From Cystobasidiomycetes sp. EMM_F5 (taxonomy: Eukaryota), in NCBI GenBank assembly GCA_051047955.1, contig JBPGPT010000018.1:62001-126000 (forward strand): a stretch of 64,000 nt of DNA, given 5' to 3'. Under the pieces are notes generated by a model. That model was not told where the DNA came from and searched no databases. It was given only the letters and a program-made list of their open reading frames with translations. Of this stretch, positions 7,074 through 52,480 are shown piece by piece. Every line of letters starts with the position of its first letter. The stretch's first letter is position 1. A program made the translations under genes and the position numbers.

Positions 7074-8121
7074 CTAGTCTGTAGAGTTGTCTGGGACCAG
7101 GTTGCCGTAGCTGTCTCGCTTGGCGCGGCTGAAGGAGAAGATGATCAGCGGCGACGACAGAATAGAGGACGGCGCGCAGACTCACAAGAAAGTGTAGCTC
7201 AGTACCACATCGTCGATATACCGCATCGAGGGATCATCCACAAAGTCCTTGTCGATAAAGAAGAGTATTGGCAGATCGACTTCCTCGCCAGCAAGCAGTC
7301 TCTGCTCCTCGAAGCAAAAGCACTCGACTTTGGCAAAATACGGCGCAACGTTGTTTGGCGTGACATTGTACGTGGCTATGCCAATGATATCCTTGTCGGA
7401 CTTGTTTGTCGCAGTGTAAAATGCCAGCGCGGATTCACCCGGGCGTACCCTGACCTCCCTTTGGAGCGGTGAAAACTTCCAGGGAAGGGCATCCGAACAG
7501 TCGGCATTGAAACTAACGCGTATTTTGCGCTCCTTGCGCGTGTCATCGCCCAGAAAGGGTATCAGTCTGGCTGCACTGAAACGCGAGCCCTCTATGCCAG
7601 CGGTTCCTGATGTCATCGGAGTCCCGCCTGCGCATCGATGATGAATTCAATGATTGCACTTTACCGGTCTGTTTGCATGTCATTCACTCACCGAACCCAG
7701 TAGCACTGCAGAACAGTCTGTATAGTGGCACGGAAGCATAGGTCACGCCGACACCGAGGACAAGGACTGCGGCAGTATAGAGAAGCAGAGATCTGTTCCT
7801 CTGAGCATAGTACGCCTTTCTCGAAGCGTGCATGTGCGATTGGGAGGATTTGTTGTCTGATGGCGTGGAAATTGTGCTTGCATATCGACGGAGGCTGTGA
7901 GAAGCGGCGGGCAAGCGGGACTCCCCATTCGAGAATGCCAAAGACCACCGTACAGCGTGACTGTCGCTCCTTCTTTCACTCATAATCGCCTTGCGCATGT
8001 TGGATATTCTGGCATTCTGCATGGAGCAATTGCAATAGCAACGCGGCTTGACGGCCATTTGGACTGGCCATCGGTGCATTAGTCTGCTGGTGGATGCGCT
8101 CATGGTACTCAGTGTAGTCAT
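7074..8121 (-). CDS. COX11: Cytochrome c oxidase copper chaperone Cox11 (3 exons)
   Basis: TM helix plus YASVPLYRLFCSATGFG; FNAD, WKFSPLQREVRVRPGESALAFY and copper motif KVECFCFEEQ; basic N-terminal presequence. Confidence 0.95.
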
Positions 8122-8328
8122 GGTTTTAACGATTGGAAGTGATCCAGTTGGTAGCAACCAGGGCCTTGGACCATTTCGAAACTGTGAAGTTGCCCAACTC
8201 CAACTACTGCTAACGTCAATACTACTTGCTACTATCTCGCTGCTTCTGTCTGCACTGGAACCGCTCTGTCTAACACATACAGACACTCTGGCGCAAGCAA
8301 AGAAACGCAGCCCGTTTCAGCGTTTCCC

Positions 8329-10021
8329 ATGGAAGCTCTCCAAGCCGAACACAAGCAGCATGAGACCAGACTCGACAGGCTCGAGAGTGAGGTGCAGCGC
8401 GCAACATCCCCGCCAGTAGCTGGGGAGTCGTCCCAGAGCACCGGAGCCAAGCCTTCGAGCAGTGCGTCTAGGGCCAGTCCGGCGTCATTGGCGGCACAGC
8501 TCTTTCACCGGAGTAAACCAAAGTCGAAATCATCCTCGTCGTCAAAGGCAAGCAAGAAGGCCAGCGGCAAGTTTAATACTCCTTCGCCGGCAGTCTCCCA
8601 CGCCGATTCCATAGCCCATTTGGATGAGCTGGAGCGGGAGATTCGCGAAATTGAAGATGAGGAAGCCGCACTCGTCTCTTCCGCTATCGGCATTAGCCAA
8701 GACGGTCAAGCGGTGTCTGAAGCTACCGACGGGCAGGATGATGTTCTGGATCACGCAGACCGCCTCATCTCCCAAATAGAACGAGCAAAGTCGGCAGAAC
8801 AGGAAGTACTGGCTAGAGAAAACAGTCTCTCCAGGACGACCTCTGCCGGTATTGCAAAAGGGAGTGCAGCCGCCAGTCCCGCCGAGCTCGCGCAACCTGT
8901 TCCTATCGCTGGATCCTCAGCAACGCGGACTCCGTCTGGCCTGTCCTCTCATAGTTCGCACCAACACAGCCATGGCAATTTGCACGATCTGGGTACAAAG
9001 ATCAAACATGCACTGTCCCCCGACAGTGTCCACGGAGACTCTTCATCCACTCGCGATGCCAGAGTAGCAGAATTTGCGCGTCAACACTCCTTTCCGGGCG
9101 GCAGCAGCAGCCATAACAGCAGTCATGTCGCTCCGCATCATTCTGCTTCATTACCTGTCGATACAGGCAATGCAGTCACGTCTGGTCCGAACCGGGGTAT
9201 GCCGGTGAAGAACCGACATCAGTTACGCAAGGAGAGAAAACTTGCTGAAGATAATGCTCTCCGAGCTCAAGCTCAAGCGGAAGTCGATGCTGACCGTTCC
9301 GCTGGCAAATTGGATCCTGCCGAAGTCGAAAGGGTCAGCATTGAGAGACAGTGCAAGGAAATGGGTCTCGTGATGGTCGAGATGGATCCTGATGGACACT
9401 GTGAGGTCGCTGTTCGACTTTACTGAATGTATGCTAACATCGCATGGTTGTCAGGCATGTTTTCGGCCGTTGCGGACCAACTTGTCGTGCACTCGCATAT
9501 TGCTAAGGCAGACTACCACACAACTCGCTCAGCCGCCGCATCCTACATGAGACAACATATGGACGATTTCTTGCCCTACATGCCAGCAGAGGATGAAGAA
9601 GGCCAAGGTGAAGGGCTACTCTCGCCCGAGGGGTATGCGGCGCATTGCAATCATATCGAGACGACAGCCGAATGGGGTTCGGAGACGGAATTACTAGCGC
9701 TGTCGAATTTCTACAAGGTTCCGATACATGTCGTACAAAGCAGCGGACCGGTAGTGAAGCACGGAGATAGCGAGCCGTACGCCAAGAATCAAGCTCCTCT
9801 CGCTGTCAGCTATCACAGAGCTATGTACGGTAGGTCCCGCTTACTTGTCCTAGAGTAACAGCGAATATTGGCTGAACAGGTGCTTCGTACCAGGCCTCGG
9901 CGAGCATTACAACAGTCTCAGGCCTGTCGGACACAAGAGCTTACACCATCACAGCGGAGGGCCGCCACCCATACCCCCGCACCGACATCCACCGCACGAT
10001 GTTGTCCCACTCCTGATGTAG
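8329..10021 (+). CDS. OTU-domain deubiquitinase (Otu2/OTUD6B-like), 3 exons
   Basis: DPDGHC|MFSAVADQL catalytic Cys box, TAEWGSETEL, YHRAMYG|LGEHYNSLRP His box after splicing. Confidence 0.9.
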
Positions 10022-36941: not shown

Positions 36942-38993
36942 CTAGACAATTGCGAAATCGTCTGTAGACAGTAGCGTTTCTGTCGAGTAGGGAACATCCG
37001 CGCCCCCTTCTACGGCCTTTACCGCTGAAACCTCAACGCCGCACAGACCTCTTTGGGCCACGAAATCCACTGCGACGGGGAAGACTGCCGACGTATCGTC
37101 GCCTGGCACATTGAACTCCAGTACTCCATTCCTACTGCTCTCATTTGACGCATCGACTTCAGAAATCAACCAGTTGAGGCTGTTGCTGGCATTGTCCAGA
37201 GTCCACGTAGTACCCTCTGCGGCATTGACATTTGAAGGGTCCGCTCCGTCCGGTAGCGGAATGGAGATGATGATGTTTTTGAGAACGATGGAAGGGTCTT
37301 CAGAAGTCAGCTCGTATTCGATATTGACGTCCATTGTCCCATTGTCTGTTGGTGACGGCCAGCAGTTGACTAGTGGGACAGGATTAGCTAGCGATTGACA
37401 TGCTGTGCAGACAGGCTCGGCCTTACTTGACAAAGGTACGACACTCTCATCTTTCGTCGTCAATCTCCATTTGAGAACAGCTAAGCCCTGTCGCACGGGG
37501 AAGCCTTGTTTTGTATCTCGAAGCTGAATGCGCTGAGAGTCGGTCCAGGCCTTTTTGTCGATACGGGGATGGGTCTTGAACTGCAAGTCGTTTCCATACG
37601 CATCGGAGTGCGCAAGCGACAAGACGACTTTGGTAGCTTCGGCAGAAGCGATACGCAAGTCCAAATCTCCCTTGAGGTCCAGTTTCTCCAGGCCACCATC
37701 GCGAGACAAGGCCAACGATAGCTTTTCTCGGATGACAAGGTGTACTCTAAGGAGAAGCGATGCACGTCAGCAGAACACACTTGTACAATTGACAAGCAGA
37801 AGGCAGCGCACTCTTCTTCATCTACCGGACCAAATGGATTTTCTGCTTTTGCTGGTGTAGCGGGAGCTGCTGGAGGAGCAGACATGACTGGCGTTCCTGG
37901 CGCGGAAGCTTGCTGATAGTTCTGTGTTGCTAGTCAATAAACGTCTGACATGTGATGTCTATGCTACGCTCACCATCAGAGGAGCCCGCTCCTCAACTTC
38001 CGGCAAAGGTTCGCCTCCAAGGCTATCGAGCAGGTCTTGTTGCTTCTTTGCACCTTTTGAACCGAGTTGCATGCCTTTTGTCTTGAATGGCTTGTTTGTC
38101 GTAGCCGCTGCCGAGGAAGAGGAGTCGTAATGAGGAGAGATATTCTGCACGGGCGGCGGTACGTATGCTGGCGCGTGAAATGCTGAAGGACCACCGCCTC
38201 CCATGCCCCTGTCATAGTTCACAGAGCGTGTCAGTGTAAAACTGCGGTGGGAGAGCTCTTGTCGGACGCACCCGCTCCGACCGTACGGATCCACACCTCG
38301 CTTTAGTGCCTCCCTTCTCTGCATCTCGAGCTGCTTTGCGCGTCGTTTCAGCTCCTCCTTTGCTTCCTGCTCCTTGTTCTTTGCGATAATCTCCTGTATA
38401 CGCTCCTCGTGCGACTCCATCTCCATTGCTGCGCGCACCTCGGTCATTCCTACTCGCTCGCGGTATCCGAGCGAGATGACTTCGTCAAAGGCCGAGAGGA
38501 GCTCGAATGCGTTTCTTAGAATCTCCCCCTCGCCTACACCACCTCTTGCCGTTCCCACCGAGCACATCTCTGTGACTATCCTGCCGAGGAGGTGGAGCGT
38601 GTCGATATCTTGGAGGATGTTGGACAGCGGCGGGGTGAGGAGGCAGACGTAGAGCTCGTCTATGGGCATGTAGACGTATCTTACGCTCCCGTCTGGCGAA
38701 AGGAGGGTCGTATGTTCTGCTCCTGGGGGAATGAGCTTTGTGAAGCTCATCAGGAGGCTCTCGAGACGCGACCGGGTCATCTGGGCGTGGAATCTGGGGC
38801 ACATGGAGGGTGATATGCGTCAGATGAGACGATACAATATGGAATGAAACGACCGCAGCTCACTGCCGCGCGACCAGAGGTTTGCCCAGCTTGGACACGA
38901 CGCCAGCTGCGAGGACCGTCTGAAGAGGAGCATTTGGAACAGTCAGTGATTGCTCGTCGTGTGTGATATCTGAGTATTTATCGCGCTCACCAT
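36942..38993 (-). CDS. RET2: Coatomer delta subunit, multi-exon; first coding exon appears to be the ATG alone
   Basis: VLAAGVVSKLGKPLVARQF, VRYVYMP, SNILQDIDTLHL, AFDEVISLGYRE, MEMESHEERIQE; mu-homology domain QFKTHP, VLKWR, NCWPS. Confidence 0.96.
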
Positions 38994-39379: not shown

Positions 39380-40129
39380 ATGTCAACCCAACCTCGAGAC
39401 TTTGCAAACACACAGCCCGAAAATGCTGCTCCGATTCCCCTTTCGCGTCGGGTGAGCTCATCTACGAGCTGAACTTTGTTATCTTGCTGACGGTTTATCA
39501 ACTCGGCGCGGTACTGAATGGGACACGTCCAGGTATCCACTTCTACCAATCAATCAACCCGCAGAAGGCCTGTATCTAGTGTGGAACCTGATATCGACTG
39601 GCGCTTTCCGACTCATGTAGCACCAAAGACGTCGACAACAACTAGTCGGGGAGCACAGTGTTGCGCTGTCGACCTGAAGAATCGCACATGTGTCATATGG
39701 TCGGGCAAATCGACGAGCACCATTCCGGAACCTACGGCTAGAAGAGTCAACTCGATAGCGAGCCAAGGCGTACCAGCACTTGGAGGCAATTCTGCGCTAG
39801 TCTCCTCGATCCCTAGACGAGCACAGTCTCAAATGTCTCATCGAAGCAACAGGTCACCATCTTTGATCTCTACTACTGCACCTACAGAACTGGGCGGCAA
39901 TGCTGTACGAGCGGTTTCTGCTGGGGGCAGGCGATCGCAAGACTATAGTGGTCGTCGCGTTTCCGTAGACAGCGTTACTCGAAACAAAGTATCGCAGCGA
40001 AATGCGGTTGAGCTGGATGCCAATGAGCAGAGTTCGTCCCGACTGGGAGCTTCGTCTGGTCCGCCCATCCAACTTGCTCCGCGTCGAAGCGGATCGACAT
40101 CGAGGTCTGGGAGTAACGCGGGGATGTGA
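39380..40129 (+). CDS. Orphan disordered Ser/Arg-rich protein with Cys micro-motif (family A, member 1)
   Basis: Short exon MSTQPRDF..LSRR, GTGAGC intron, long exon containing TTTTSRGAQCCAVDLKNRTCVIWSGKSTST. Confidence 0.6.
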
Positions 40130-40699: not shown

Positions 40700-41602
40700 A
40701 TGGACAAGCGCAACGTGGACAAGAGGTAATTACAATTTCCCTCCCGAAATGATAATTGACTGACCGTATCTCGCTCAACGCTGATTTCCCATTGATACAA
40801 CTCTACCATCTTCATTGTGCAGTCTTTAATTAGTAGACAACGAACTCCCGCCCCACTTCCGGAGGTTGTTCAGCAATACGACGCGCGCTCCCAATATACA
40901 TACCCTCAGCAACAACGACCAGCGACGCCAAGCTCGGTCGCATCGACGCGACAGCGTCCGACCACTACAACTAGAAGCACGGGAGCTTCTTGTCTGAGAT
41001 TTAATTGCTCGCACGACAATCGATCATGCGTTCTTTGGACTGCTGGCGAGACTACGACCACCACCGAAATGCCACTAAACTCTAGACCCGCTACTCAATC
41101 GGAACCTTTTCAGAGCAGTCGCCCGCTATCGCGCTTCGCAGGGTCAAGTGGTACGGCCGGGCCTCCCGGAATGCACAGAACTATGAGTGGTCTATCTGAG
41201 ACTAGCGCAGGTGGGTTGGGAGGCTCCACTTCAATGTCCCGCCGGCCTTCGCAATCTGGTCCTGCACCTGGAGCCGAACTTTCAATCGGAAGCAGACTCT
41301 CCGAAGCACCCGGCGCGCCGCGTATCGCAGAGATGCCTTCCGGAGCACCGCAGCACCGTCGGCGAGGTTCAGAGACTTCCGTAAGGCGAGCTTCAACCGG
41401 CAGGAGAGGCTCGATTTCCAGAACACAGTACGAAGTCGGACAGGAAACAACCGTGTCGCCTCCTATGGGTACGGGCGATAACAGACGGACTCCCCGCCCC
41501 GGATCAAGCTCCTCTACAGGCGGCGGATCCATCACGCCTAGCATATCTCGTCGCAACTCCGAAGTAGGCCAACAACTGCAACAGCCTAACAAGAAAAAGT
41601 AG
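40700..41602 (+). CDS. Orphan disordered protein (family A, member 2); start uncertain
   Basis: 261-codon open frame with TTTTRSTGASCLRFNCSHDNRSCVLWTAGETTTTT and many RRxS sites. Confidence 0.6.
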
Positions 41603-42208: not shown

Positions 42209-42941
42209 ATGTCTCGCCGGCCATCCACACCTCCAGTTGTGCAGCTTACGCGGGTACGGCCTACAATTTTTCGCATGATAGACAGAAGCTGACTGCGATA
42301 CAACCATTACACGCTAGGCTTCGTCAAATCAGCTGTCGACACTTCCAAACCTCCAAACCTCCTTTGATCGTCCTTCAAGCGTTACCTCTCGAATAGGAAG
42401 CACCGGGCACGGTGCGATACCTCCTGGCTCCGCATCTCCATCGCAAAGAGGCCAAAGTACTACAGTCACAGAGGGTCCGGTCTTTTGCCACACACAGTGT
42501 ACTAAAGGTCAGCGGGGCTGTATAGTATTCAGGGGATCTTCGACCACAACGACCGTTGACCCCGCGCCGCGAGTCGTTTCGAGACCGCCGAGCAATCGCT
42601 CTACAGCAACCGTACCATTCGGTTTAAACGCAACTCCGCAGCGGACTCCTACAAGCCGCCATACCGGGACAATCACCCCAACGACTGCTCATTCAGAAGT
42701 CAGCGGTAACGAGATACACATGTCAGACGGTCAACCTCGTCACGAAATCAGAGGCAGACCTGTGACAGCAATGTCAGGGCGCAGTGCAACCTGGCACAAT
42801 AGCACAACACCCGTGGAACTCGGTGATACCTCTGCAGGAAGATCACGGTCGCGTAGCCCGCTGCGTACTACCCCTGGAAGTCGCAATCGTACACCTGTAC
42901 GCCGCGCTTCGATTTCCAAATCTTCCGAGTTGGTGCCTTAG
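42209..42941 (+). CDS. Orphan disordered protein (family A, member 3)
   Basis: Exon MSRRPSTPPVVQLTR, GTACGG..GCTGAC..TAG intron, then open frame with STTVTEGPVFCHTQCTKGQRGCIVFRGSSTTTT to SKSSELVP-stop; only partly shown in the ORF track. Confidence 0.6.
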
Positions 42942-43190: not shown

Positions 43191-44855
43191 TCATTGCTGA
43201 TATGTCCACTGCTCCACCGCGTCTTTCCATGACATAAAGTACGGATTCTGAAATTTAGCAGCCTCGTCCATTCCGAATTGATGAATCCAAGGATGCCCCG
43301 CGCGGCTAGAGCTTGTGTGCTCACTAGCGACGTTGTGTCCGTACCACCAGTACTGTGCGTGTTCCTCCGGATTTGTGCTTTGTGGCGGGAGACCGTACCT
43401 GCCAACGATTCCGACAGTAAAAAAACCACGGCAATCGTCGCACCAGAAGTTCTCGGACAGATGTCCAGCAAGAGCTCGGAAGGCGGCCACTTGCTTAGCG
43501 CTCAGCGGGTTCTGCTGGTTGTGGGCAAGGAAGTGTATCATCGACCAGACCTGGTTGGGCTGGGCAGACAGCGTACCAGCTCGGGCTAGTGCCAATGCGA
43601 TATTGCTGCCACTTATTTCCGCCTGCTTGGTACAGTCTTGTGTGCTGCCTAGCGAATTAGGGTCACCGGCAGCTTTGACTACATCGTTGAAGCTGGGGAT
43701 CGCTCCAATGAGATGCGTTGGCCATAACGCAGCTGCAATGTTATAAGACTTCTTCTGCGTATCATATACTTGTGCTCCGAGGCTAGTATTGCGATTCCAG
43801 AACGCACAGTCTCCCGGGGACGCGACCTCGCCTGGGAAAAGAAGGATGAAGCGATGGAGGGCCGCGATTGCGAGAGTCTGGTTCAGTCCGCCTTTTGAAG
43901 TATTCGAAGCGGTTCTGGGACACTCGGTCGAGTCCCACCATGGTCCAGAATAGCAGATATCTTTGGGGCGTTGAGGCAGGCAGGTTGATGGGCTGACCTC
44001 ATAATCCGGACCTGTGCAGACGAGCCCAGGACCACAGACAAGAGGGCGCGCAAATGGCTTGCCATCTTCTTGCCGTTTGAAAGACAAGCCGAACTCATTT
44101 TCGAAAGCTCCGAATTCGAGCGGGTTGCCGATACAACTTTGCTGAGCTGTACGATACTTGACACAGGTTCCTCTAGCTGGCTTCCATGTTTCAATCTTGG
44201 GTCCCATGCTGAGGCCAAAGTCGCCAAGTGTGCTATCAACACACATTTGCTGGTAGCTTGCCAGAAAAGCCTTGTCGGTTGAGTTGGCAGCGATGGCAGC
44301 AGCTTCAAAGCAGTATTCGGACTGAGGAGTAGTACCATCGGCATTCATAGCCCACCGCCCCCACTTTTCGTGAATATCCACCATGCACCATTCGTCAGAT
44401 CCGCATATGCCGGGATTCTCGTAACAATCGGGTCGAGCAGGGATTGGACAGAAGACGTCGTCACACCTGAGCTTGACAAAATCGCCCTTTGAGACGGTAC
44501 GGAGGACAGGTGTGTCACCAGAAGTATCGGCGTAGGTCATGTTTTGACTGGCAATGGCACAGCCGAATTGCGTAAAATACATCGGTTGATCAGCAATGGG
44601 TGTTCCACAGTCGATAGAGTTGTTGTTGCTGTTGACATATTGACGTTCATAGCGGTTTGAGCGTGTCTGTAAGCCAGCGCCGCCGCCACTGCGTTGCGCT
44701 TGGGCGGCGGCCCAATGTCCAACCACTGCATCAGACCAGAATTGTCGGTAGTGGCTCGGAGACGCCGATACACGGCAGGACAGGGCTAAAAGGAGGATTA
44801 TGAGCAAGCTAGACTGCTTGGGTATATGCGAAAACCTCGGTTGTGCGGGCAACAT
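43191..44855 (-). CDS. Secreted Cys-rich protein with C-terminal Erv1/ALR-type sulfhydryl oxidase domain, intronless
   Basis: Hydrophobic N-terminal LLIILLLALSCRVSA; Cys-rich middle; VWSMIHFLA..FWCDDCRGFF..YWWYGHNVASEH matching the Erv W-x3-H / CxxC / W-x3-HN pattern. Confidence 0.72.
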   Translation of the reverse strand: MLPAQPRFSHIPKQSSLLIILLLALSCRVSASPSHYRQFWSDAVVGHWAAAQAQRSGGGAGLQTRSNRYERQYVNSNNNSIDCGTPIADQPMYFTQFGCAIASQNMTYADTSGDTPVLRTVSKGDFVKLRCDDVFCPIPARPDCYENPGICGSDEWCMVDIHEKWGRWAMNADGTTPQSEYCFEAAAIAANSTDKAFLASYQQMCVDSTLGDFGLSMGPKIETWKPARGTCVKYRTAQQSCIGNPLEFGAFENEFGLSFKRQEDGKPFARPLVCGPGLVCTGPDYEVSPSTCLPQRPKDICYSGPWWDSTECPRTASNTSKGGLNQTLAIAALHRFILLFPGEVASPGDCAFWNRNTSLGAQVYDTQKKSYNIAAALWPTHLIGAIPSFNDVVKAAGDPNSLGSTQDCTKQAEISGSNIALALARAGTLSAQPNQVWSMIHFLAHNQQNPLSAKQVAAFRALAGHLSENFWCDDCRGFFTVGIVGRYGLPPQSTNPEEHAQYWWYGHNVASEHTSSSRAGHPWIHQFGMDEAAKFQNPYFMSWKDAVEQWTYQQ

Positions 44856-45790
44856 GCCCAGCTGCTCGGTGCCGAGAATGTAGCAAATTGAGTGGTAGCA
44901 GGCGAATCAGCCGTACGAGCGTAGTTGGGGTGGGCTGAAGCACACAAAGATTGCCATTCTTTCGCTTGACTTCTGGAGGAGGTGTCGCCACCATGAGGCC
45001 CCGCCATGCAAAAAACCTCCGGTATGGAGGCCAGAAGCGGCAGCATAGTTGCCAAGAGTTGCCTGTCACAGTCGCGACAGGGATAACGTTATGGCCATGG
45101 CCAGCGTGCCTGTACGAATGGATGTCAGTGGGTCAGTCACTCAAAAGTTAGTTCCTGCAACTGCCAATTGCGGCGAGGCAGCACCCAATCAGCCTATTCA
45201 GCCCATTCAGCCTAACTAGCACGTTCCGTAACGAAGCTGTCGTGCGTGTTATAGCCTGTGGTAGAGTATAGCTGGTGCCAGCGTCTTCCAGGTCAGTTCC
45301 AGCTCATGATACACCGTCTTCAGCTCGAACAGCCCAGATTAGAGCAGAGCACATCGGGCGAGTCGTGTCCATTGGTCGCAGCTGACACAGGCTCCGATAT
45401 ACACCCAAGGACCATCTCCCGCTCAGCAAACTGACAAGTTGAAGCAATCTCAAGCTGACTCTGAGATCTGACGGATTTCTACACAACGTCGAATAGAAAC
45501 AACGTCAGCGGCTTGTCGTCAGCTGCACGAACAGCCAGTCCAAGTCGGCAGTGCCCACCTCAGTCGTGGTGATACGGCTGGCGTCAGGTGATGAGCCGCC
45601 CCTTGTGCAGAAGACACAGCAACAACGCCCAAATGCCACAGCCCATTGCAAGGTCTATAAAGTGCTCTACGGTATACGTGGTGCTTCTTGTCTTTCTAAT
45701 CCGCTGAAACACCAAGCACGAGCCCGAGCATCACAATCTACCAATCTTTCATCACAACCCTCACGCCACTTTCTCCGTACAATACGCATC

Positions 45791-46481
45791 ATGTCCGCAC
45801 GAACACCCTCAGTACGTCTTTATTCGTCATGCATCGCAGTCTCAAGTACTGATCTGCCTTGATCGTCACCAGAATTCAGGTCCTCGACGACCATCCATCA
45901 ATACTCAAGTGACTCCCACATTCAGAGTAAACAGCCACACACCGCCCTCTGCTCTATCTGCGCGCAGCTCGACTGAAGCTACCAGTCGTCGACCCATCCT
46001 CACAACGACGCATGGACGTAGATTTTGCTTCAAGGATGATGGTGGGTGTGGACTTTACGAGGGTCCCAAGACTGTCCAGGAGCAGGCACAACCTCCCATG
46101 CCGAGGCACTACACCAAGCGACCGTTGGGTAGATATGCCCTTCCCTCCAACATCGCTCGTACCACATCAATGGCCTCTACTCCTTCTCCACTACCACCAA
46201 ACAACGAGCGACCGGTCAGTCAGCTCAGTGCCAGTGCCCAATCTCAACTTTCTGAATTGTCAAACTCTGGCGGATTACGACAAGAACTTCCCGCTGCGAA
46301 GGCACCTGTGGAAATGCCTGCTACTGAGGCATATGAAATGCAGACGCCGATTCAGTCGAAAAAACCGCCTCGCAGAAATTCGAGCTCCCTGCTAGTATCG
46401 CCACAGTCGGCTGGCAACAGTCCAGGCTTAGGCGTGAAGCGGCACGATTCTGCGGGACTTGCTACACCACCACACCACTGA
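45791..46481 (+). CDS. Orphan disordered protein (family A, member 4, most divergent)
   Basis: Exon MSARTPS, GTACGT intron, long exon with LTTTHGRRFCFKDDGGCGLYEGPKTV. Confidence 0.55.
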
Positions 46482-49901: not shown

Positions 49902-50636
49902 TTATGCTACAAAGTGACCTCGCCAGTAGATGAGATGGGCGACTTGACCATAGGCACGGTCGTCGACGTCAATAGTATCATACATCGGGTTGCCCTGGTG
50001 CTTGTCGCTGACCGTAACGAAGTATCGCAGATGCGATGGGAGGTCGAGAAGCCTTGAGGGCGACTCAACGCTGGAACGCGGTATGCACCTACCACCTTTG
50101 TACCAATGTGATCTGCTAGGTATGTGCGGATTGGCAAGCACGCGATGTGTAGCTACAGCTGCTGTAGTTCGCAGGTTCGGATTGGACGCTGAATTCCGCG
50201 GACTTGGATTGGCTACTGCAGTTTGCGGACTCGTATTGGAGACCGAATTTCGTGGACTCGGATTGGAAGCACGGCGTTGTTGATGCGAAACAGCACCACT
50301 CTGTATGACTGGCGTGTTCCCAGCGGAGCTAGAACTGCGTTGTCCGACAGGCGCTGCCGCCGAGGGTCCACTGCTGAACATCCGCACTGCTTCTTTGTAC
50401 AGTACGTCACCGTGGTGTAAACGAATCGCGATATGTTTGTGAGGAGAAGGCTCTATTCCTTGCGATGTTTCCGGAGCTGCAATGACATAGTAGCTAGATG
50501 GAGCGATCCGGTGCCGTTTGCCTAAGACGAGCTTTTGGCAGACGTAGCGGATTGGAGAGGTGACGATGGTGCTTGGTTGAGCATTGTTGGTAGCCGTTCG
50601 CCCGCCACTAGCCGCAAGCATCGGAGGGCCAGACAT
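49902..50636 (-). CDS. Orphan protein (family B, member 1), coding region intronless
   Basis: 244-aa ORF sharing blocks with the next gene (RYxC, YVIA, LYxEAxRxF, PSRSxWYKGG, ESPxxxLDLP, GQVAHxIY); internal NPSPRNS repeats. Confidence 0.7.
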   Translation of the reverse strand: MSGPPMLAASGGRTATNNAQPSTIVTSPIRYVCQKLVLGKRHRIAPSSYYVIAAPETSQGIEPSPHKHIAIRLHHGDVLYKEAVRMFSSGPSAAAPVGQRSSSSAGNTPVIQSGAVSHQQRRASNPSPRNSVSNTSPQTAVANPSPRNSASNPNLRTTAAVATHRVLANPHIPSRSHWYKGGRCIPRSSVESPSRLLDLPSHLRYFVTVSDKHQGNPMYDTIDVDDRAYGQVAHLIYWRGHFVA

Positions 50637-51151
50637 CGAGCTGTGAGCGAAAGTGATTATACTGATGGTCAGTACAGATCGGTGTAAGCGTGAGAGATGG
50701 CCAGTAAACTGGAGTCTGCAGACAAGCTGTTGAATTGGCGATGTCTTACAGGCAAGTGGTAGACTCGGGGCAGTGCCTTACCTTACAGTCAGTCAATGCG
50801 ATGCAGGCATATATGTAATTCATTGTAAGTAGTATTGATGTGGTATCAGCCCTCACTTCATGTTGAGTAATGCATCCAGCCTTCGATATATCTGCACGCG
50901 CCTATTGATCAGCATGACGCGGCGAAATAGAAAAAACTGAATCATCGCGGTCGACGCAGTTTCGGAATCGAGTATGAAGGCATATGTCGCGCTTCACTGT
51001 TTTTGCACAAGCACACATCCTGAGAGCTTTTCAGGTCGGAGACTGTCATCAAAACAACAGCCATGACTTTGCTGCTACAAGTCCTGGGAGCGGGAAAAAG
51101 CTCTTTTTGCGGACACCGGATCTTGTTGCGGAGAAATGAGACATTCAGCCA

Positions 51152-51832
51152 TTAGCCTCGCAGGTTCGCAGCCCTTGTGATCCTCGCGGGCAGCGGCGTG
51201 ACTGAGGCTCTTTCCCATGATCTCGCCCTGAAGTAGATGCGGTGAGCGACTTGGCCAAAATCCCGATAAGAAACAGTGACATTGTGACGGAGTGCGTCGC
51301 CCGTATCTCTTTCGTTCACGGTGACGATTGGTCTCCATTCTAGGGGAAGGTCAAGGACTGATGCTGGCGACTCGATTTCGGCCGGATTCAGTTTACCGCC
51401 CTTGTACCACGGCGATCTGCTGGGAAGGAGCGGTCTGTCTTGACCGAGCGGAAACAAAAGGCTCTCGACTGGAGTAGCACTTAGAGAGTTGCGCCAAGAA
51501 ATCGGTCTGGTTCGTCTCGTTGTTGCTTGTCCAACGATGCTACTATTACTGCTGGACATTCTCCGGTTGCTCGGCGTCTGCAAGAACAAACGCTCTGCCT
51601 CACGGTAGAGAGGAGTGCCCGATGGTACGACAACAGCAACATCGTGGTGTGGTGTACGCTTTGTAGGATCTTGTGGGCGATAATCAGTCGGTGTCGCAAT
51701 GACATAGAACGTTGATCCTGACCAACTATGGCGTTTCTGACCCTGCACTAGCCTGATGCAAGTATATCGCCGGGTTTGAGGTCTTGTCGCACCGGTCTGC
51801 AGCGTAGGTGTGCTTGCCGACTGACCGACCAT
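51152..51832 (-). CDS. Orphan protein (family B, member 2)
   Basis: Colinear similarity to 49902-50636; first in-frame ATG at 51832. Confidence 0.7.
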   Translation of the reverse strand: MVGQSASTPTLQTGATRPQTRRYTCIRLVQGQKRHSWSGSTFYVIATPTDYRPQDPTKRTPHHDVAVVVPSGTPLYREAERLFLQTPSNRRMSSSNSSIVGQATTRRTRPISWRNSLSATPVESLLFPLGQDRPLLPSRSPWYKGGKLNPAEIESPASVLDLPLEWRPIVTVNERDTGDALRHNVTVSYRDFGQVAHRIYFRARSWERASVTPLPARITRAANLRG

Positions 51833-52480
51833 TTGTGCTGATCTTCTGGACGATATGCCTACTGCACGGAGTCGATATTCGTGATGTATAGGGAATACTT
51901 CAAGAGTCAAGAGATGGAAGTGAAAGCAAGTCGACTCTCGCTTTGTGAGGATAGCTCATTGTGATTGACACCGCTCGCAAGAATAGGGTAGCTTCGCCCG
52001 CCGGAACATGCCCGTGTGGCCAGTGAACTGAGTGGGCAGATAGCACATAGACTGACAGTATCGCCTTGAGGTGAGTTGTGAGCCTTTATTGCCGGTGTGA
52101 TTGAACGGCTTTGTGCCGCAGTTAGTGCCAGGCGCTTCTCATGTATATCCAGCCGTTCGACGGCCGCAGCTGCCAACGGAGCATACTCTCAGACCATGTT
52201 ATCGTCAGTACGTAGTTTTGCATCATTTGTCGTTTCCGTGCATTGCATAAAATGGCCGGCGGTCGCACTGACAGATTCCTGCGAAACGGGGTGCTTTATT
52301 CAGACATCCAGAGCGTGTCCACTATCAGTATTATATATTGTCCATTCTGAGCAGAACCAAGCCAGCTTTTCCTTCAATTAGCTACCTGAATGTCCCGATC
52401 ATTTACGCGCAAATGGCAGCAAATGCACAGTCGCCAATGCCATCTTTGTCCAATCTTCCTGCTGAGCGACCTGCCAGGCC

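What the first reader, a model, noticed from the sequence alone, without database searches (positions are those of the whole stretch)
43191..44855. Intronless secreted Cys-rich protein fused to an atypical Erv1/ALR sulfhydryl oxidase domain
Seen: a single-exon 554-aa ORF in an intron-rich genome. It has a signal peptide, ~400 aa of Cys-rich sequence (e.g. CDDVFCP..DCYENPGICGSDEWC; CVKYR..SC..CGPGLVCTG..C), and a C-terminal WSMIH..CDDC..WWYGHN module. Known: fungal Erv1/Erv2 are ~200 aa, and QSOX has thioredoxin domains, which I do not see here; the canonical HNxVN is HNVAS. Inference: an undescribed architecture for an extracellular disulfide-forming or H2O2-producing oxidase. Its lack of introns and antisense placement inside an orphan gene array fit a horizontal or retro-insertion origin.
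Basis: partly seen in the sequence, partly recalled or inferred. Interest (0 to 1): 0.72.

Follow-up and report, generated by a model that had tools for sequence, protein, structure and literature searches.

The report
Secreted Erv-type thiol oxidase, new N-domain
This fungal gene encodes a probably secreted, flavin-dependent disulfide-forming enzyme of the Erv type, joined to a cysteine-rich domain of no known fold; it belongs to an unstudied family scattered among a few fungi and marine protists.

Summary

**Erv domain.** The C-terminal domain (aa 427-554) is a true but divergent Erv/ALR domain.
- Pfam scores below threshold: 21.4 bits against a cut-off of 27.6.
- Thirteen of 17 weak relatives scanned pass that threshold.
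- In an AlphaFold model the nine best of 48,161 PDB chains are all Erv-family oxidases. Z is modest, up to 7.8 and 8.2.
- CxxC is kept in 25 of 26 family members, and W437, H441, H507 and N508 in all 26.

**Other regions.** Residues 314-426 are helical and overlay the pseudo-Erv domain of QSOX, which is suggestive only. Residues 79-313 hold 16 conserved Cys and match no Pfam family or known fold.

**Distribution.** The family is patchy: Metarhizium, Drechmeria, a few Aspergillus and Penicillium species, this Pucciniomycotina-like basidiomycete, dinoflagellates, Chromera, a labyrinthulid, an ichthyosporean and Emiliania.

**Origin.** No sign of retro-insertion or unusual composition was found. 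Horizontal transfer is plausible but not shown.

**Verdict.** A new variant of a known enzyme kind, of moderate interest.

The parts
43191..44855 (-). Complete single-exon ORF, 554 aa plus stop (protein P0001)
   Evidence: The closest homologues are collinear over 95-98% of the query. tblastn with P0003 and P0009 gives one unbroken block each.
44763..44855 (-). aa 1-31: signal-peptide-like N-terminus with basic residues, the hydrophobic core SSLLIILLLALS, and VSA before the conserved SPSHY
   Evidence: Read from the sequence, with a Kyte-Doolittle window mean of 3.28. 23 of 26 relatives have the same kind of stretch. No predictor was run.
44622..44762 (-). aa 32-78: conserved N-terminal motif (A/S-P-S-x-Y ... 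AV), a predicted helix, then a variable low-confidence linker
   Evidence: Alignment A1, with P33 conserved in at least 90%. Model helix 42-57; pLDDT below 50 at 57-78.
43917..44621 (-). aa 79-313: family-specific disulfide-rich domain with 16 conserved Cys. Twelve are invariant in 26 of 26 and four in 24-25 of 26. Includes the C131-x4-C136 loop.
   Evidence: No Pfam family in any of 45 members scanned. No clear PDB fold: Foldseek best E 0.15, VIA best Z 2.7.
43578..43916 (-). aa 314-426: Cys-poor helical region, a possible pseudo-Erv domain, with a probable C350-C408 disulfide
   Evidence: pLDDT block means 86-97 from residue 321. The QSOX1 psiErv+Erv fragments align over 175-178 residues spanning model 314/318-554 at Z 7.7. 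C350 and C408 are lost together in P0096 and P0099. No sequence similarity to the Erv domain by hhalign.
43194..43577 (-). aa 427-554: Erv/ALR-type FAD sulfhydryl oxidase domain with a family-specific C-terminal extension (NPYFM...W)
   Evidence: PF04777 at 21.4 bits, E 3.4e-4, aa 435-514. Profile against PDB: AtErv1 2hj3 at E 0.026. VIA: 2hj3_A Z 8.2, rmsd 1.9, 100 of 101 residues, model 427-551; yeast Erv1 core Z 7.8, 111 of 113.
43431..43442 (-). C472-D-D-C475, the presumed redox-active CxxC next to the flavin
   Evidence: Aligned with the CxxC of Arabidopsis Erv1. Kept in 25 of 26 members, and both Cys are lost together in P0094.
43533..43547 (-). W437-S-M-I-H441, the helix-1 motif (WxxxH) of Erv domains
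   Evidence: W437 and H441 are invariant in 26 of 26 and align to W and H of AtErv1.
43317..43349 (-). W503-W-Y-G-H507-N508-V-A-S-E512-H513, the counterpart of the Erv HNxVN motif
   Evidence: H507, N508, E512 and H513 are invariant in 26 of 26. HN aligns to HN of AtErv1. The same HNxA(N/S)E(H/Q) form occurs in relatives that pass the Pfam threshold.

Best explanation
The gene encodes a protein of the secretory pathway, most likely secreted. It works as a flavin (FAD)-dependent sulfhydryl oxidase of the Erv type. Dithiols are oxidised to disulfides at C472-x-x-C475, the electrons pass to FAD and then to O2, and H2O2 is released.

The catalytic Erv domain (aa 427-554) follows a helical region (314-426). 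That region probably packs on the Erv domain as the pseudo-Erv domain does in QSOX.

Before it lies a family-specific domain (79-313) held together by about eight disulfides. Inference only: this domain takes the place of the thioredoxin domain of QSOX or the flexible tails of Erv1 and Erv2. It would bind substrate or carry a shuttle disulfide, with the C131-x4-C136 loop as the candidate.

**Shown here:** the ORF, its homologues, conservation of the motifs, the predicted Erv fold, and the absence of a Trx domain, transmembrane segment or KDEL/HDEL.

**Inferred:** FAD binding, catalysis, secretion, the role of the N-domain, and the substrate.

The protein belongs to an uncharacterised, slowly evolving eukaryotic family with a very patchy distribution. 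Whether this basidiomycete copy came by horizontal transfer or by descent with many losses is open.
For: **Homology to Erv/ALR.**
- PF04777 is the only Pfam hit, at E 3.4e-4.
- The family profile's best PDB sequence hit is Arabidopsis Erv1, E 0.026, with W, H, CxxC and HN aligned.
- Of 17 weak phmmer hits of the query that were scanned, 13 pass the Pfam cut-off (31-49 bits against 27.6). Those 13 hit the query at E 4e-14 to 4.5e-5.
- 23 of 45 family rows hit PF04777 at E <= 0.01.

**Fold.**
- The AF2 model has pLDDT block means of 86-97 over residues 321-470.
- In the Foldseek-independent search of 48,161 chains, ranks 1-9 are all Erv-family oxidases: yeast Erv1 core (Z 7.8), the QSOX1 fragment (7.7), Erv1, Erv2, mimivirus R596 (two entries), rat QSOX, ASFV pB119L and T. 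brucei QSOX.
- 2hj3_A aligns at Z 8.2, rmsd 1.9 A, over 100 of 101 residues.

**Purifying selection on the catalytic set.** W437, H441, N446, H507, N508, E512 and H513 are kept in 26 of 26 members. C472 and C475 are kept in 25 of 26 and lost only together.

**Secretory route.**
- 23 of 26 members have a signal-like N-terminus.
- The highest 19-aa hydropathy in any mature part is 1.53.
- No member ends in KDEL or HDEL.
- The window protein has 20 Cys in its mature part and six N-x-S/T sequons.

**Disulfide pairs supported by joint loss:** 83+99, 131+136, 350+408 and 472+475.
Against: - The window protein itself scores below Pfam's curated threshold (21.4 against 27.6). Two family members, P0016 and P0095, gave no PF04777 hit at E <= 0.01.
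- Structural Z scores of 7-8 are in the range the tool calls 'middling' for helical models, and Foldseek gave no match at E <= 1e-3.
- The usual HNxVN is HNVAS. The Cys of the structural disulfide that I recall in Erv1, ALR and Erv2 is absent, since there is no Cys after C475.
- One family member, P0094, has lost the CxxC, so non-catalytic members exist.
- No FAD-binding, activity, localisation or expression data exist. No RNA run was listed for this locus.
- The N-terminal model is only moderately confident (mean pLDDT 68.5), so its role is a guess.
- The pseudo-Erv reading rests on alignments with rmsd 4.6-4.8 A whose Z is no higher than for the Erv domain alone. It has no sequence support.
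Confidence: 0.68

Rival explanations
1. The protein is a lumenal enzyme of the ER, Golgi or vacuole, or is cell-wall bound. There it introduces disulfides into a few dedicated substrates, as Erv2 or Golgi QSOX do. It would not be a freely secreted oxidase or H2O2 producer.
For: The chemistry and evidence are the same as for the main reading. A signal peptide only shows entry into the ER. QSOX enzymes act in the Golgi, the cell wall or outside the cell (PMC3616962, Background passage).
Against: None of the 26 members has a KDEL/HDEL end or a membrane anchor. Retention can use other signals, so this is weak evidence.
Confidence: 0.2
2. The protein is a catalytically dead, disulfide-rich extracellular binding or structural protein. 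It would keep the Erv fold only as a scaffold.
For: Sub-threshold Pfam score. The motif is HNVAS rather than HNxVN. One relative lacks the CxxC. The large Cys-rich domain weakly resembles small binding modules: the colipase / Dickkopf / MIT1 group at Foldseek E 0.15-0.8, and IGFBP-N at E 3.7-4.5.
Against: The CxxC is kept in 25 of 26 members, and the residues aligned with the W/H/HN set of AtErv1 in 26 of 26, across lineages only 32-46% identical overall. That pattern is what selection on catalysis would give.
Confidence: 0.08
3. On origin: the gene reached this basidiomycete lineage by horizontal transfer from an ascomycete or a protist, rather than by vertical descent.
For: - Very patchy presence. 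Named fungal holders are Metarhizium spp., Drechmeria coniospora, Aspergillus udagawae and A. hiratsukae, and seven Penicillium species.
- The protein is 58-63% identical to the ascomycete-clade copies. The neighbouring coatomer delta C-terminal part is only 46-50% identical to the nearest named Pucciniomycotina.
- The gene has a single exon and lies among lineage-specific ORFs.
- With the unnamed rows included, AU tests reject Hypocreales, Penicillium and Aspergillus monophyly (p 0.036, 1e-40, 0.029).
Against: - Codon usage and GC3 are like the host's.
- No insertion scars were found.
- The first split in the fungal clade separates the window's group from the ascomycetes, as vertical descent would give.
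- With the six unnamed rows dropped, monophyly is not rejected (p 0.17 and 0.13), and the groups were named after the tree was seen.
- The family evolves slowly: fungi against alveolates are still 41-48% identical. So 58-63% across the two phyla is not anomalous.
- An unnamed relative has both a 71% coatomer delta (P0263) and, possibly, one of the 70-72% copies. That would fit inheritance within the lineage, but whether they come from one organism is unknown.
Confidence: 0.4

Closest known systems
QSOX (quiescin sulfhydryl oxidase)
   Same: Both take the secretory route. Both have an Erv catalytic domain preceded by a helical region that overlays the QSOX pseudo-Erv domain: 3llk_B and 3lli_A at Z 7.7, with 175-178 residues aligned across model 314/318-554. 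In both, a large N-terminal module sits upstream that could hand electrons to the Erv CxxC.
   Different: There is no thioredoxin domain. There is no C-terminal third CxxC, since no Cys follows C475. The N-terminal module is an unrelated disulfide-rich domain. QSOX is reported absent from fungi (PMC3616962, abstract and passages). That paper also calls the psiErv/Erv module unique to QSOX (section 11).
Erv1/ALR and Erv2 (single-domain Erv oxidases)
   Same: The Erv helix-bundle fold matches: AtErv1 Z 8.2, yeast Erv1 core Z 7.8, ALR Z 7.7, Erv2 Z 7.2. W, H, CxxC and HN align with AtErv1.
   Different: - Those proteins are about 100-200 aa (chains of 101-152 residues), against 554 aa here.
- From recall: they are homodimers with a shuttle disulfide on a flexible tail and a structural Cx16C disulfide.
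- Erv1 is mitochondrial, whereas this protein has a signal peptide.
- The motif is HNVASEH instead of HNxVN.
Viral Erv-family oxidases (mimivirus R596, ASFV pB119L, baculovirus P33)
   Same: They share the Erv fold: R596 Z 7.0, pB119L Z 6.4, and P33 Z 5.3-5.5 with 168-176 residues aligned. Some also carry extra non-catalytic domains.
   Different: No relative of the whole family was found in 2.9 million viral contigs. The best BFVD match is weak, a Marseillevirus oxidase at E 0.048. No viral match covered the Cys-rich N-domain.
Secreted fungal sulfhydryl oxidases (A. niger SOX, AoSOX1)
   Same: Both are presumed secreted fungal flavoenzymes that oxidise thiols with O2 and produce H2O2.
   Different: Those enzymes are related to thioredoxin reductases, not to the Erv family (PMC2936869, Background passage). 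No such domain is found here.

Membership tests
Erv/ALR sulfhydryl oxidase superfamily (PF04777) | Erv helix-bundle fold | tested here: met
   On the AF2 model, 2hj3_A aligns at Z 8.2, rmsd 1.9, over 100 of 101 residues. Ranks 1-9 of 48,161 chains are all Erv-family proteins. Caveat: this is a predicted model, and Z of 7-8 is modest.
Erv/ALR sulfhydryl oxidase superfamily (PF04777) | Redox-active CxxC at the start of the helix that faces the flavin | tested here: met
   C472-D-D-C475 aligns with the CxxC of AtErv1. It is kept in 25 of 26 members.
Erv/ALR sulfhydryl oxidase superfamily (PF04777) | Conserved flavin-contacting residues: W and H of helix 1 and the HN of the later helix (their roles are recalled, not tested) | tested here: met
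   W437, H441, H507 and N508 are kept in 26 of 26 members and align to the same residues of AtErv1. The final N of HNxVN is S511 here.
Erv/ALR sulfhydryl oxidase superfamily (PF04777) | Profile score above Pfam's curated threshold | tested here: inconclusive
   The window protein scores 21.4 bits against 27.6. Family members score 20.4-27.7, and only P0035 passes. Thirteen of 17 weaker relatives of the query pass with 31-49 bits.
Erv/ALR sulfhydryl oxidase superfamily (PF04777) | Bound FAD and O2-dependent thiol oxidase activity | not testable with these tools
   This needs a purified protein.
QSOX | N-terminal thioredoxin-fold domain with CxxC (defining, according to PMC3616962) | tested here: not met
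   No Trx family appears in Pfam for the query at E up to 10, nor in 45 family rows. The search for longer forms found only one, a 2518-aa model with DnaJ, LicD and hydroxylase domains.
QSOX | Pseudo-Erv domain directly upstream of the Erv domain | tested here: inconclusive
   QSOX fragments align across model 314/318-554 (175-178 residues, Z 7.7, rmsd 4.6-4.8). Z is no higher than for the Erv domain alone, and hhalign of 313-426 against 427-554 finds nothing. The region was not folded alone.
QSOX | C-terminal third CxxC | tested here: not met
   No cysteine follows C475.
Erv1/ALR/Erv2 subfamilies | Small size, and a shuttle disulfide on an N- or C-terminal tail next to the Erv domain (recalled) | tested here: not met
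   The protein has 554 aa. The only Cys between 313 and the end are C350, C408, C472 and C475.
Thioredoxin-reductase-like secreted fungal SOX | Pyridine-nucleotide-disulfide oxidoreductase (Rossmann) FAD domain | tested here: not met
   No such Pfam hit appears at E up to 10.

The most novel reading that the evidence does not exclude
The family would be a third, independent solution to the electron-relay problem of Erv enzymes. It would be a QSOX-like pseudo-Erv/Erv pseudodimer, a module so far thought unique to QSOX. It would have no thioredoxin domain and instead be fed by a new disulfide-rich domain whose C131-x4-C136 loop acts as the shuttle disulfide.

The family would have spread horizontally among eukaryotes, many of which live with invertebrates or in the sea: dinoflagellate symbionts, Chromera, a clam parasite, an ichthyosporean, and insect- and nematode-killing fungi. 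That spread would give a few fungi, which otherwise lack QSOX, an extracellular disulfide-forming or H2O2-producing activity.
Probability: 0.25. Interest if true: 0.65.

Novelty: new variant of a known kind. Interest (0 to 1): 0.5.

Why it matters
**For enzymology.** Erv-type oxidases are known in three settings: small homodimers (Erv1/ALR, Erv2), QSOX with thioredoxin domains, and viral forms. Here an Erv domain is joined to a conserved disulfide-rich domain of no known fold. If the enzyme is active, it shows another way to deliver substrate electrons to the Erv CxxC. If the helical region is a true pseudo-Erv domain, the psiErv/Erv module is not confined to QSOX.

**For fungal biology.** Fungi are reported to lack QSOX. 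Their known secreted sulfhydryl oxidases belong to a different flavoenzyme class. An Erv-type secreted oxidase in a few insect- or nematode-pathogenic and soil fungi would therefore be a new extracellular redox activity.

**For evolution.** The scattered distribution makes the family a useful case for study, although transfer is not demonstrated here.

**For annotation.** The gene model on record for this locus starts at M92 and loses the signal peptide. The names 'KHSRP' and 'licD' on the Symbiodinium homologues look like artefacts of merged gene models.

Tried and rejected
- **PDB by sequence.** The single sequence found nothing.
- **ESM Atlas.** No usable hit for the whole protein or for residues 79-313.
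- **Earlier scan notes.** Nothing was returned.
- **Own genome.** None is held for this window.
- **Viral origin.** No relative was found in viral contigs; 11 pattern matches, none confirmed. The BFVD best match is a Marseillevirus oxidase at E 0.048. A giant-virus origin gains no support. The scan uses two peptide patterns and could miss distant forms.
- **Prokaryotic origin.** 22 pattern matches in genome contigs, none confirmed.
- **Internal duplication.** hhalign of 313-426 against 427-554 gave probability <= 0.06%.
- **N-domain fold.**
  - Foldseek's best matches are MIT1 (E 0.15), Dkk1 C-terminal domain (0.32) and a spider toxin (0.82), with IGFBP N-domains at 3.7-4.5.
  - VIA across 48,161 chains gave a best Z of 2.7, with knottins and colipase at 2.0-2.5.
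  - These are too weak to name a fold.
- **Retro-insertion or mobile element.** No poly(A) tract and no flanking repeats beyond short chance-level matches.
- **Compositional anomaly.** None found.
- **Expression.** No RNA holder was listed.
- **Homodimer test.** The job was residues 314-554 in two copies with FAD. Complex prediction never accepted it: the queue was full, and the job was not sent on. No result exists.
- **Topological evidence for transfer inside Ascomycota.** It looked significant with the unnamed rows included and vanished when they were dropped.
- **Fused forms.** The search for longer proteins found one, a 2518-aa Symbiodinium model that is probably merged.
- **Literature.** Seven searches found no paper on this family. 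Subscription journals are not covered, and no supplementary files were opened.
Full report
**Observation.** An ATG-to-stop ORF of 554 codons lies at 43191-44855 on the minus strand. The protein has 21 cysteines, one of them inside the N-terminal hydrophobic stretch, and six N-x-S/T sequons. The N-terminus has basic residues, the core SSLLIILLLALS, and VSA before a conserved SPSHY. This reads as a signal peptide, although no predictor was available. Twenty-three of 26 aligned relatives have a comparable hydrophobic stretch directly before the same conserved motif. No member has a transmembrane-like stretch in its mature part (highest 19-aa hydropathy 1.53) or a KDEL/HDEL end. The gene is real: 41 near-length homologues have E <= 1e-3, the closest at 70-72% identity over 95-98% of the length. 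The model on record for this locus (P0002, 463 aa) starts at M92. The conserved N-terminal motif and signal peptide upstream of M92 show that M1 is the better start.

**The C-terminal domain.**
- Pfam gives a single hit, PF04777 (Erv1/Alr), at aa 435-514. It scores 21.4 bits against a curated cut-off of 27.6 (E 3.4e-4).
- The single sequence finds nothing in the PDB.
- A profile of 26 family members finds Arabidopsis Erv1 (2hj3) as best hit at E 0.026. W437, H441, C472xxC475 and H507-N508 align to the corresponding residues.
- An exhaustive phmmer search of 1.84 billion cluster representatives returns 157 proteins at E <= 1e-3, of which 42 are at <= 1e-30.
- Of 17 of its weaker hits that I scanned, 13 pass the Pfam threshold with 31-49 bits. 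The family is therefore linked to bona fide Erv/ALR proteins through intermediates.
- An alignment shows that the intermediates share the HNxA(N/S)E(H/Q) form and the C-terminal NPWFM extension.
- Of the 45 rows of alignment A2, 23 hit PF04777 at E <= 0.01. The first row is the N-terminal part only.
- An AlphaFold2 model from the 26-sequence alignment has mean pLDDT 70.1 and pTM 0.72, with block means of 86-97 over residues 321-470.
- Foldseek gives no PDB match at E <= 1e-3, but its top rows are QSOX1 and Erv proteins.
- VIA-align gives 2hj3_A at Z 8.2, rmsd 1.9 A, 100 of 101 residues, model 427-551.
- In the Foldseek-independent scan of 48,161 chains, ranks 1-9 are all Erv-family oxidases (Z 6.4-7.8). 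They are followed by ketopantoate reductase C-domains at Z <= 5.5.
- The Z values are modest for a helical model. The unanimity of the top rows and the sequence evidence together make the Erv assignment firm.
- W437, H441, N446, H507, N508, E512 and H513 are invariant in 26 of 26 members. The two CxxC cysteines are kept in 25 of 26 and lost only together, in P0094.

**The middle region.**
- Residues 314-426 are confidently helical.
- The human QSOX1 fragments that comprise pseudo-Erv plus Erv align over 175-178 residues spanning model 314/318-554 (Z 7.7, rmsd 4.6-4.8).
- Baculovirus P33 aligns over 168-176 residues (Z 5.3-5.5).
- This fits a pseudo-Erv domain packed against the Erv domain. But the Z is no higher than for the Erv domain alone, and profile-profile comparison of the two halves finds nothing. 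I could not fold the region alone.
- According to the QSOX evolution paper, the psiErv/Erv module is characteristic of QSOX alone, and QSOX is absent from fungi (PMC3616962: abstract, passages and section 11).

**The N-terminal domain.**
- Residues 79-313 carry 16 conserved cysteines. Twelve are invariant in 26 of 26 members.
- Joint losses support the pairs C83-C99, C131-C136 and C350-C408.
- No Pfam family matches this region in any of 45 rows.
- A separate model (45-sequence alignment, mean pLDDT 68.5) has no clear PDB match. Foldseek's best E is 0.15 and VIA's best Z is 2.7.
- Only faint resemblance to small disulfide-rich modules appears: colipase / Dickkopf / MIT1, IGFBP-N and knottins, for model residues about 111/203-266.
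- I treat it as a family-specific domain of unknown fold.
- No thioredoxin domain exists in the family. The search for longer forms found only one 2518-aa Symbiodinium model with unrelated domains, probably a merged model.

**How it probably works.** By analogy with the Erv family, substrate dithiols reduce the C472-C475 disulfide, the flavin is reduced in turn, and O2 takes the electrons to give H2O2. Erv enzymes need a second, mobile disulfide to reach protein substrates: tails in Erv1 and Erv2 (recalled), and a Trx domain in QSOX (PMC3616962). The only conserved candidates here lie in the N-domain, and the C131-x4-C136 loop is the most obvious. That step, the substrate, and secretion itself are inferences.

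**Distribution.**
- Named holders among fungi are Metarhizium (guizhouense, robertsii, anisopliae, brunneum, humberi), Drechmeria coniospora, Aspergillus udagawae and A. hiratsukae, and seven Penicillium species.
- Named holders among protists are Symbiodinium spp., Pelagodinium beii, Chromera velia, Mucochytrium quahogii, Pirum gemmata and Emiliania huxleyi.
- 46 metagenome or metatranscriptome loci encode relatives. In contigs of 8.5-16.4 kb (L020-L023) the match is one unbroken block. In L020 it is a single 575-codon ORF.
- No relative was confirmed in viral contigs or prokaryotic genomes.

**The window's organism.** The neighbouring coatomer delta gene matches named Pucciniomycotina best. 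Its C-terminal part is 46% identical to Mixia and 47-50% to Rhodotorula, Sporobolomyces and Microbotryum. Its N-terminal part is 59% identical to Mixia. An unnamed relative matches at 69-71%. The gene therefore sits in a basidiomycete. Other window genes are ordinary housekeeping genes.

**Origin.**
- The fungal sequences form one clade (100/100) whose position among the protist lineages is unresolved. Dinoflagellate sequences fall in two clades.
- Inside the fungal clade the first split separates the window plus four unnamed sequences (69-72% identical to it) from the ascomycete clade, which is 58-63% identical to it.
- With unnamed rows included, AU tests rejected monophyly of Hypocreales, Penicillium and Aspergillus (p 0.036, 1e-40, 0.029).
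- After dropping the six unnamed rows of the ascomycete clade, monophyly was not rejected (Hypocreales p 0.17, Penicillium p 0.13). The groups were named after the tree was seen.
- The ORF's GC3 (0.55) and codon usage (RSCU distance 0.30) lie within the range of 16 housekeeping pieces (0.24-0.52).
- There is no poly(A) remnant or flanking repeat.
- Neighbouring genes do have introns, but uninterrupted frames of 824, 845 and 696 codons occur in the same window.
- Retro-insertion is therefore unsupported. Horizontal transfer remains a reasonable reading of the patchiness, but it is not shown for this copy.

**Surroundings.**
- From about 39.5 to 55.4 kb, no ORF of the 11 scanned has a Pfam hit.
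- Four plus-strand ORFs (39518, 40796, 42318, 45708) are Ser/Thr/Arg/Pro-rich and share a short Cys-containing motif by eye. BLAST links only the first two.

**Comparison and verdict.**
- The protein works like an Erv-family sulfhydryl oxidase and passes the fold and motif tests of that superfamily.
- It fails two defining tests of QSOX (Trx domain and C-terminal CxxC) and the size and tail tests of Erv1 and Erv2.
- It is unrelated to the thioredoxin-reductase-like secreted fungal oxidases (PMC2936869, Background passage).
- Databases already label several members 'Sulfhydryl oxidase' automatically.
- Seven literature searches found no description of the family or its architecture. The library lacks most subscription journals, and no supplements were read.
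- I rate it a new variant of a known kind, of moderate interest.

Noticed in passing
window 43191-44582 (-) against 43191-44855 (-): The protein on record for this locus (P0002, 463 aa) starts at M92. It lacks the signal peptide and the N-terminal motif that is conserved from fungi to dinoflagellates, so the model looks truncated at its 5' end.
   Followed up: partly
window 39518-40126, 40796-41599, 42318-42938, 45708-46478 (+): Four Ser/Thr/Arg/Pro-rich ORFs with no Pfam hit. GC at codon position 2 is 0.63-0.68 in the first three. They share a short motif by eye: two or three Cys, then (V/I)(I/L/V)(W/F), then a run of Thr/Ser. BLAST links only 40796 and 39518 (45% over 38 aa, E 1e-4). They may be a lineage-specific tandem family.
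   Followed up: partly
window 49905-50777 (-) and 51155-51955 (-): Two neighbouring ORFs are paralogues (34-35% identity over 215 aa, E 3e-26 to 6e-29). Neither has a Pfam hit.
   Followed up: no
window 36945-38810 (-): This is the coatomer delta gene, in two homology blocks. Its closest named relatives are Pucciniomycotina (Mixia, Rhodotorula, Microbotryum) at only 46-59% identity. The source therefore seems to be a basidiomycete without a close named relative in the database.
   Followed up: partly
P0016, P0019, P0026, P0361 (Symbiodinium homologues): The source names 'KHSRP' and 'licD' are probably artefacts. P0026 (776 aa) carries a KH domain. P0361 (2518 aa) carries DnaJ, LicD and hydroxylase domains. 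That suggests merged gene models whose names spread to the unfused homologues.
   Followed up: no
P0241 (Emiliania huxleyi, 913 aa): This family member is fused, in its gene model, to a C-terminal 'diatom pyrenoid shell protein' domain (PF25192, E 8.3e-51, residues 744-902). It could be a real fusion or a merged model.
   Followed up: no
P0094 (unnamed protist member): Both cysteines of the CxxC are replaced (S and D), while the rest of the domain is kept. It may be a non-catalytic paralogue. One row of alignment A2 also hits PAN domains weakly (E 8e-4); one search does not say which row.
   Followed up: no
L020:1007-2008 and L020:3265-4458: In a 16.4-kb metagenome contig that looks eukaryotic, the homologue (ORF 8067-9794) has upstream neighbours with other redox domains: a 2OG-Fe(II) oxygenase domain and a vanadium chloroperoxidase N-terminal domain.
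   Followed up: no
P0300 (Penicillium cosmopolitanum): One identical protein sequence is listed under two locus tags of the same species. That would fit two identical copies in one genome, and is worth checking for a mobile element.
   Followed up: no
family tree: Dinoflagellate members fall in two well-separated clades, Pelagodinium in one and Symbiodinium in the other. This points to old paralogy or transfer among protists.
   Followed up: no
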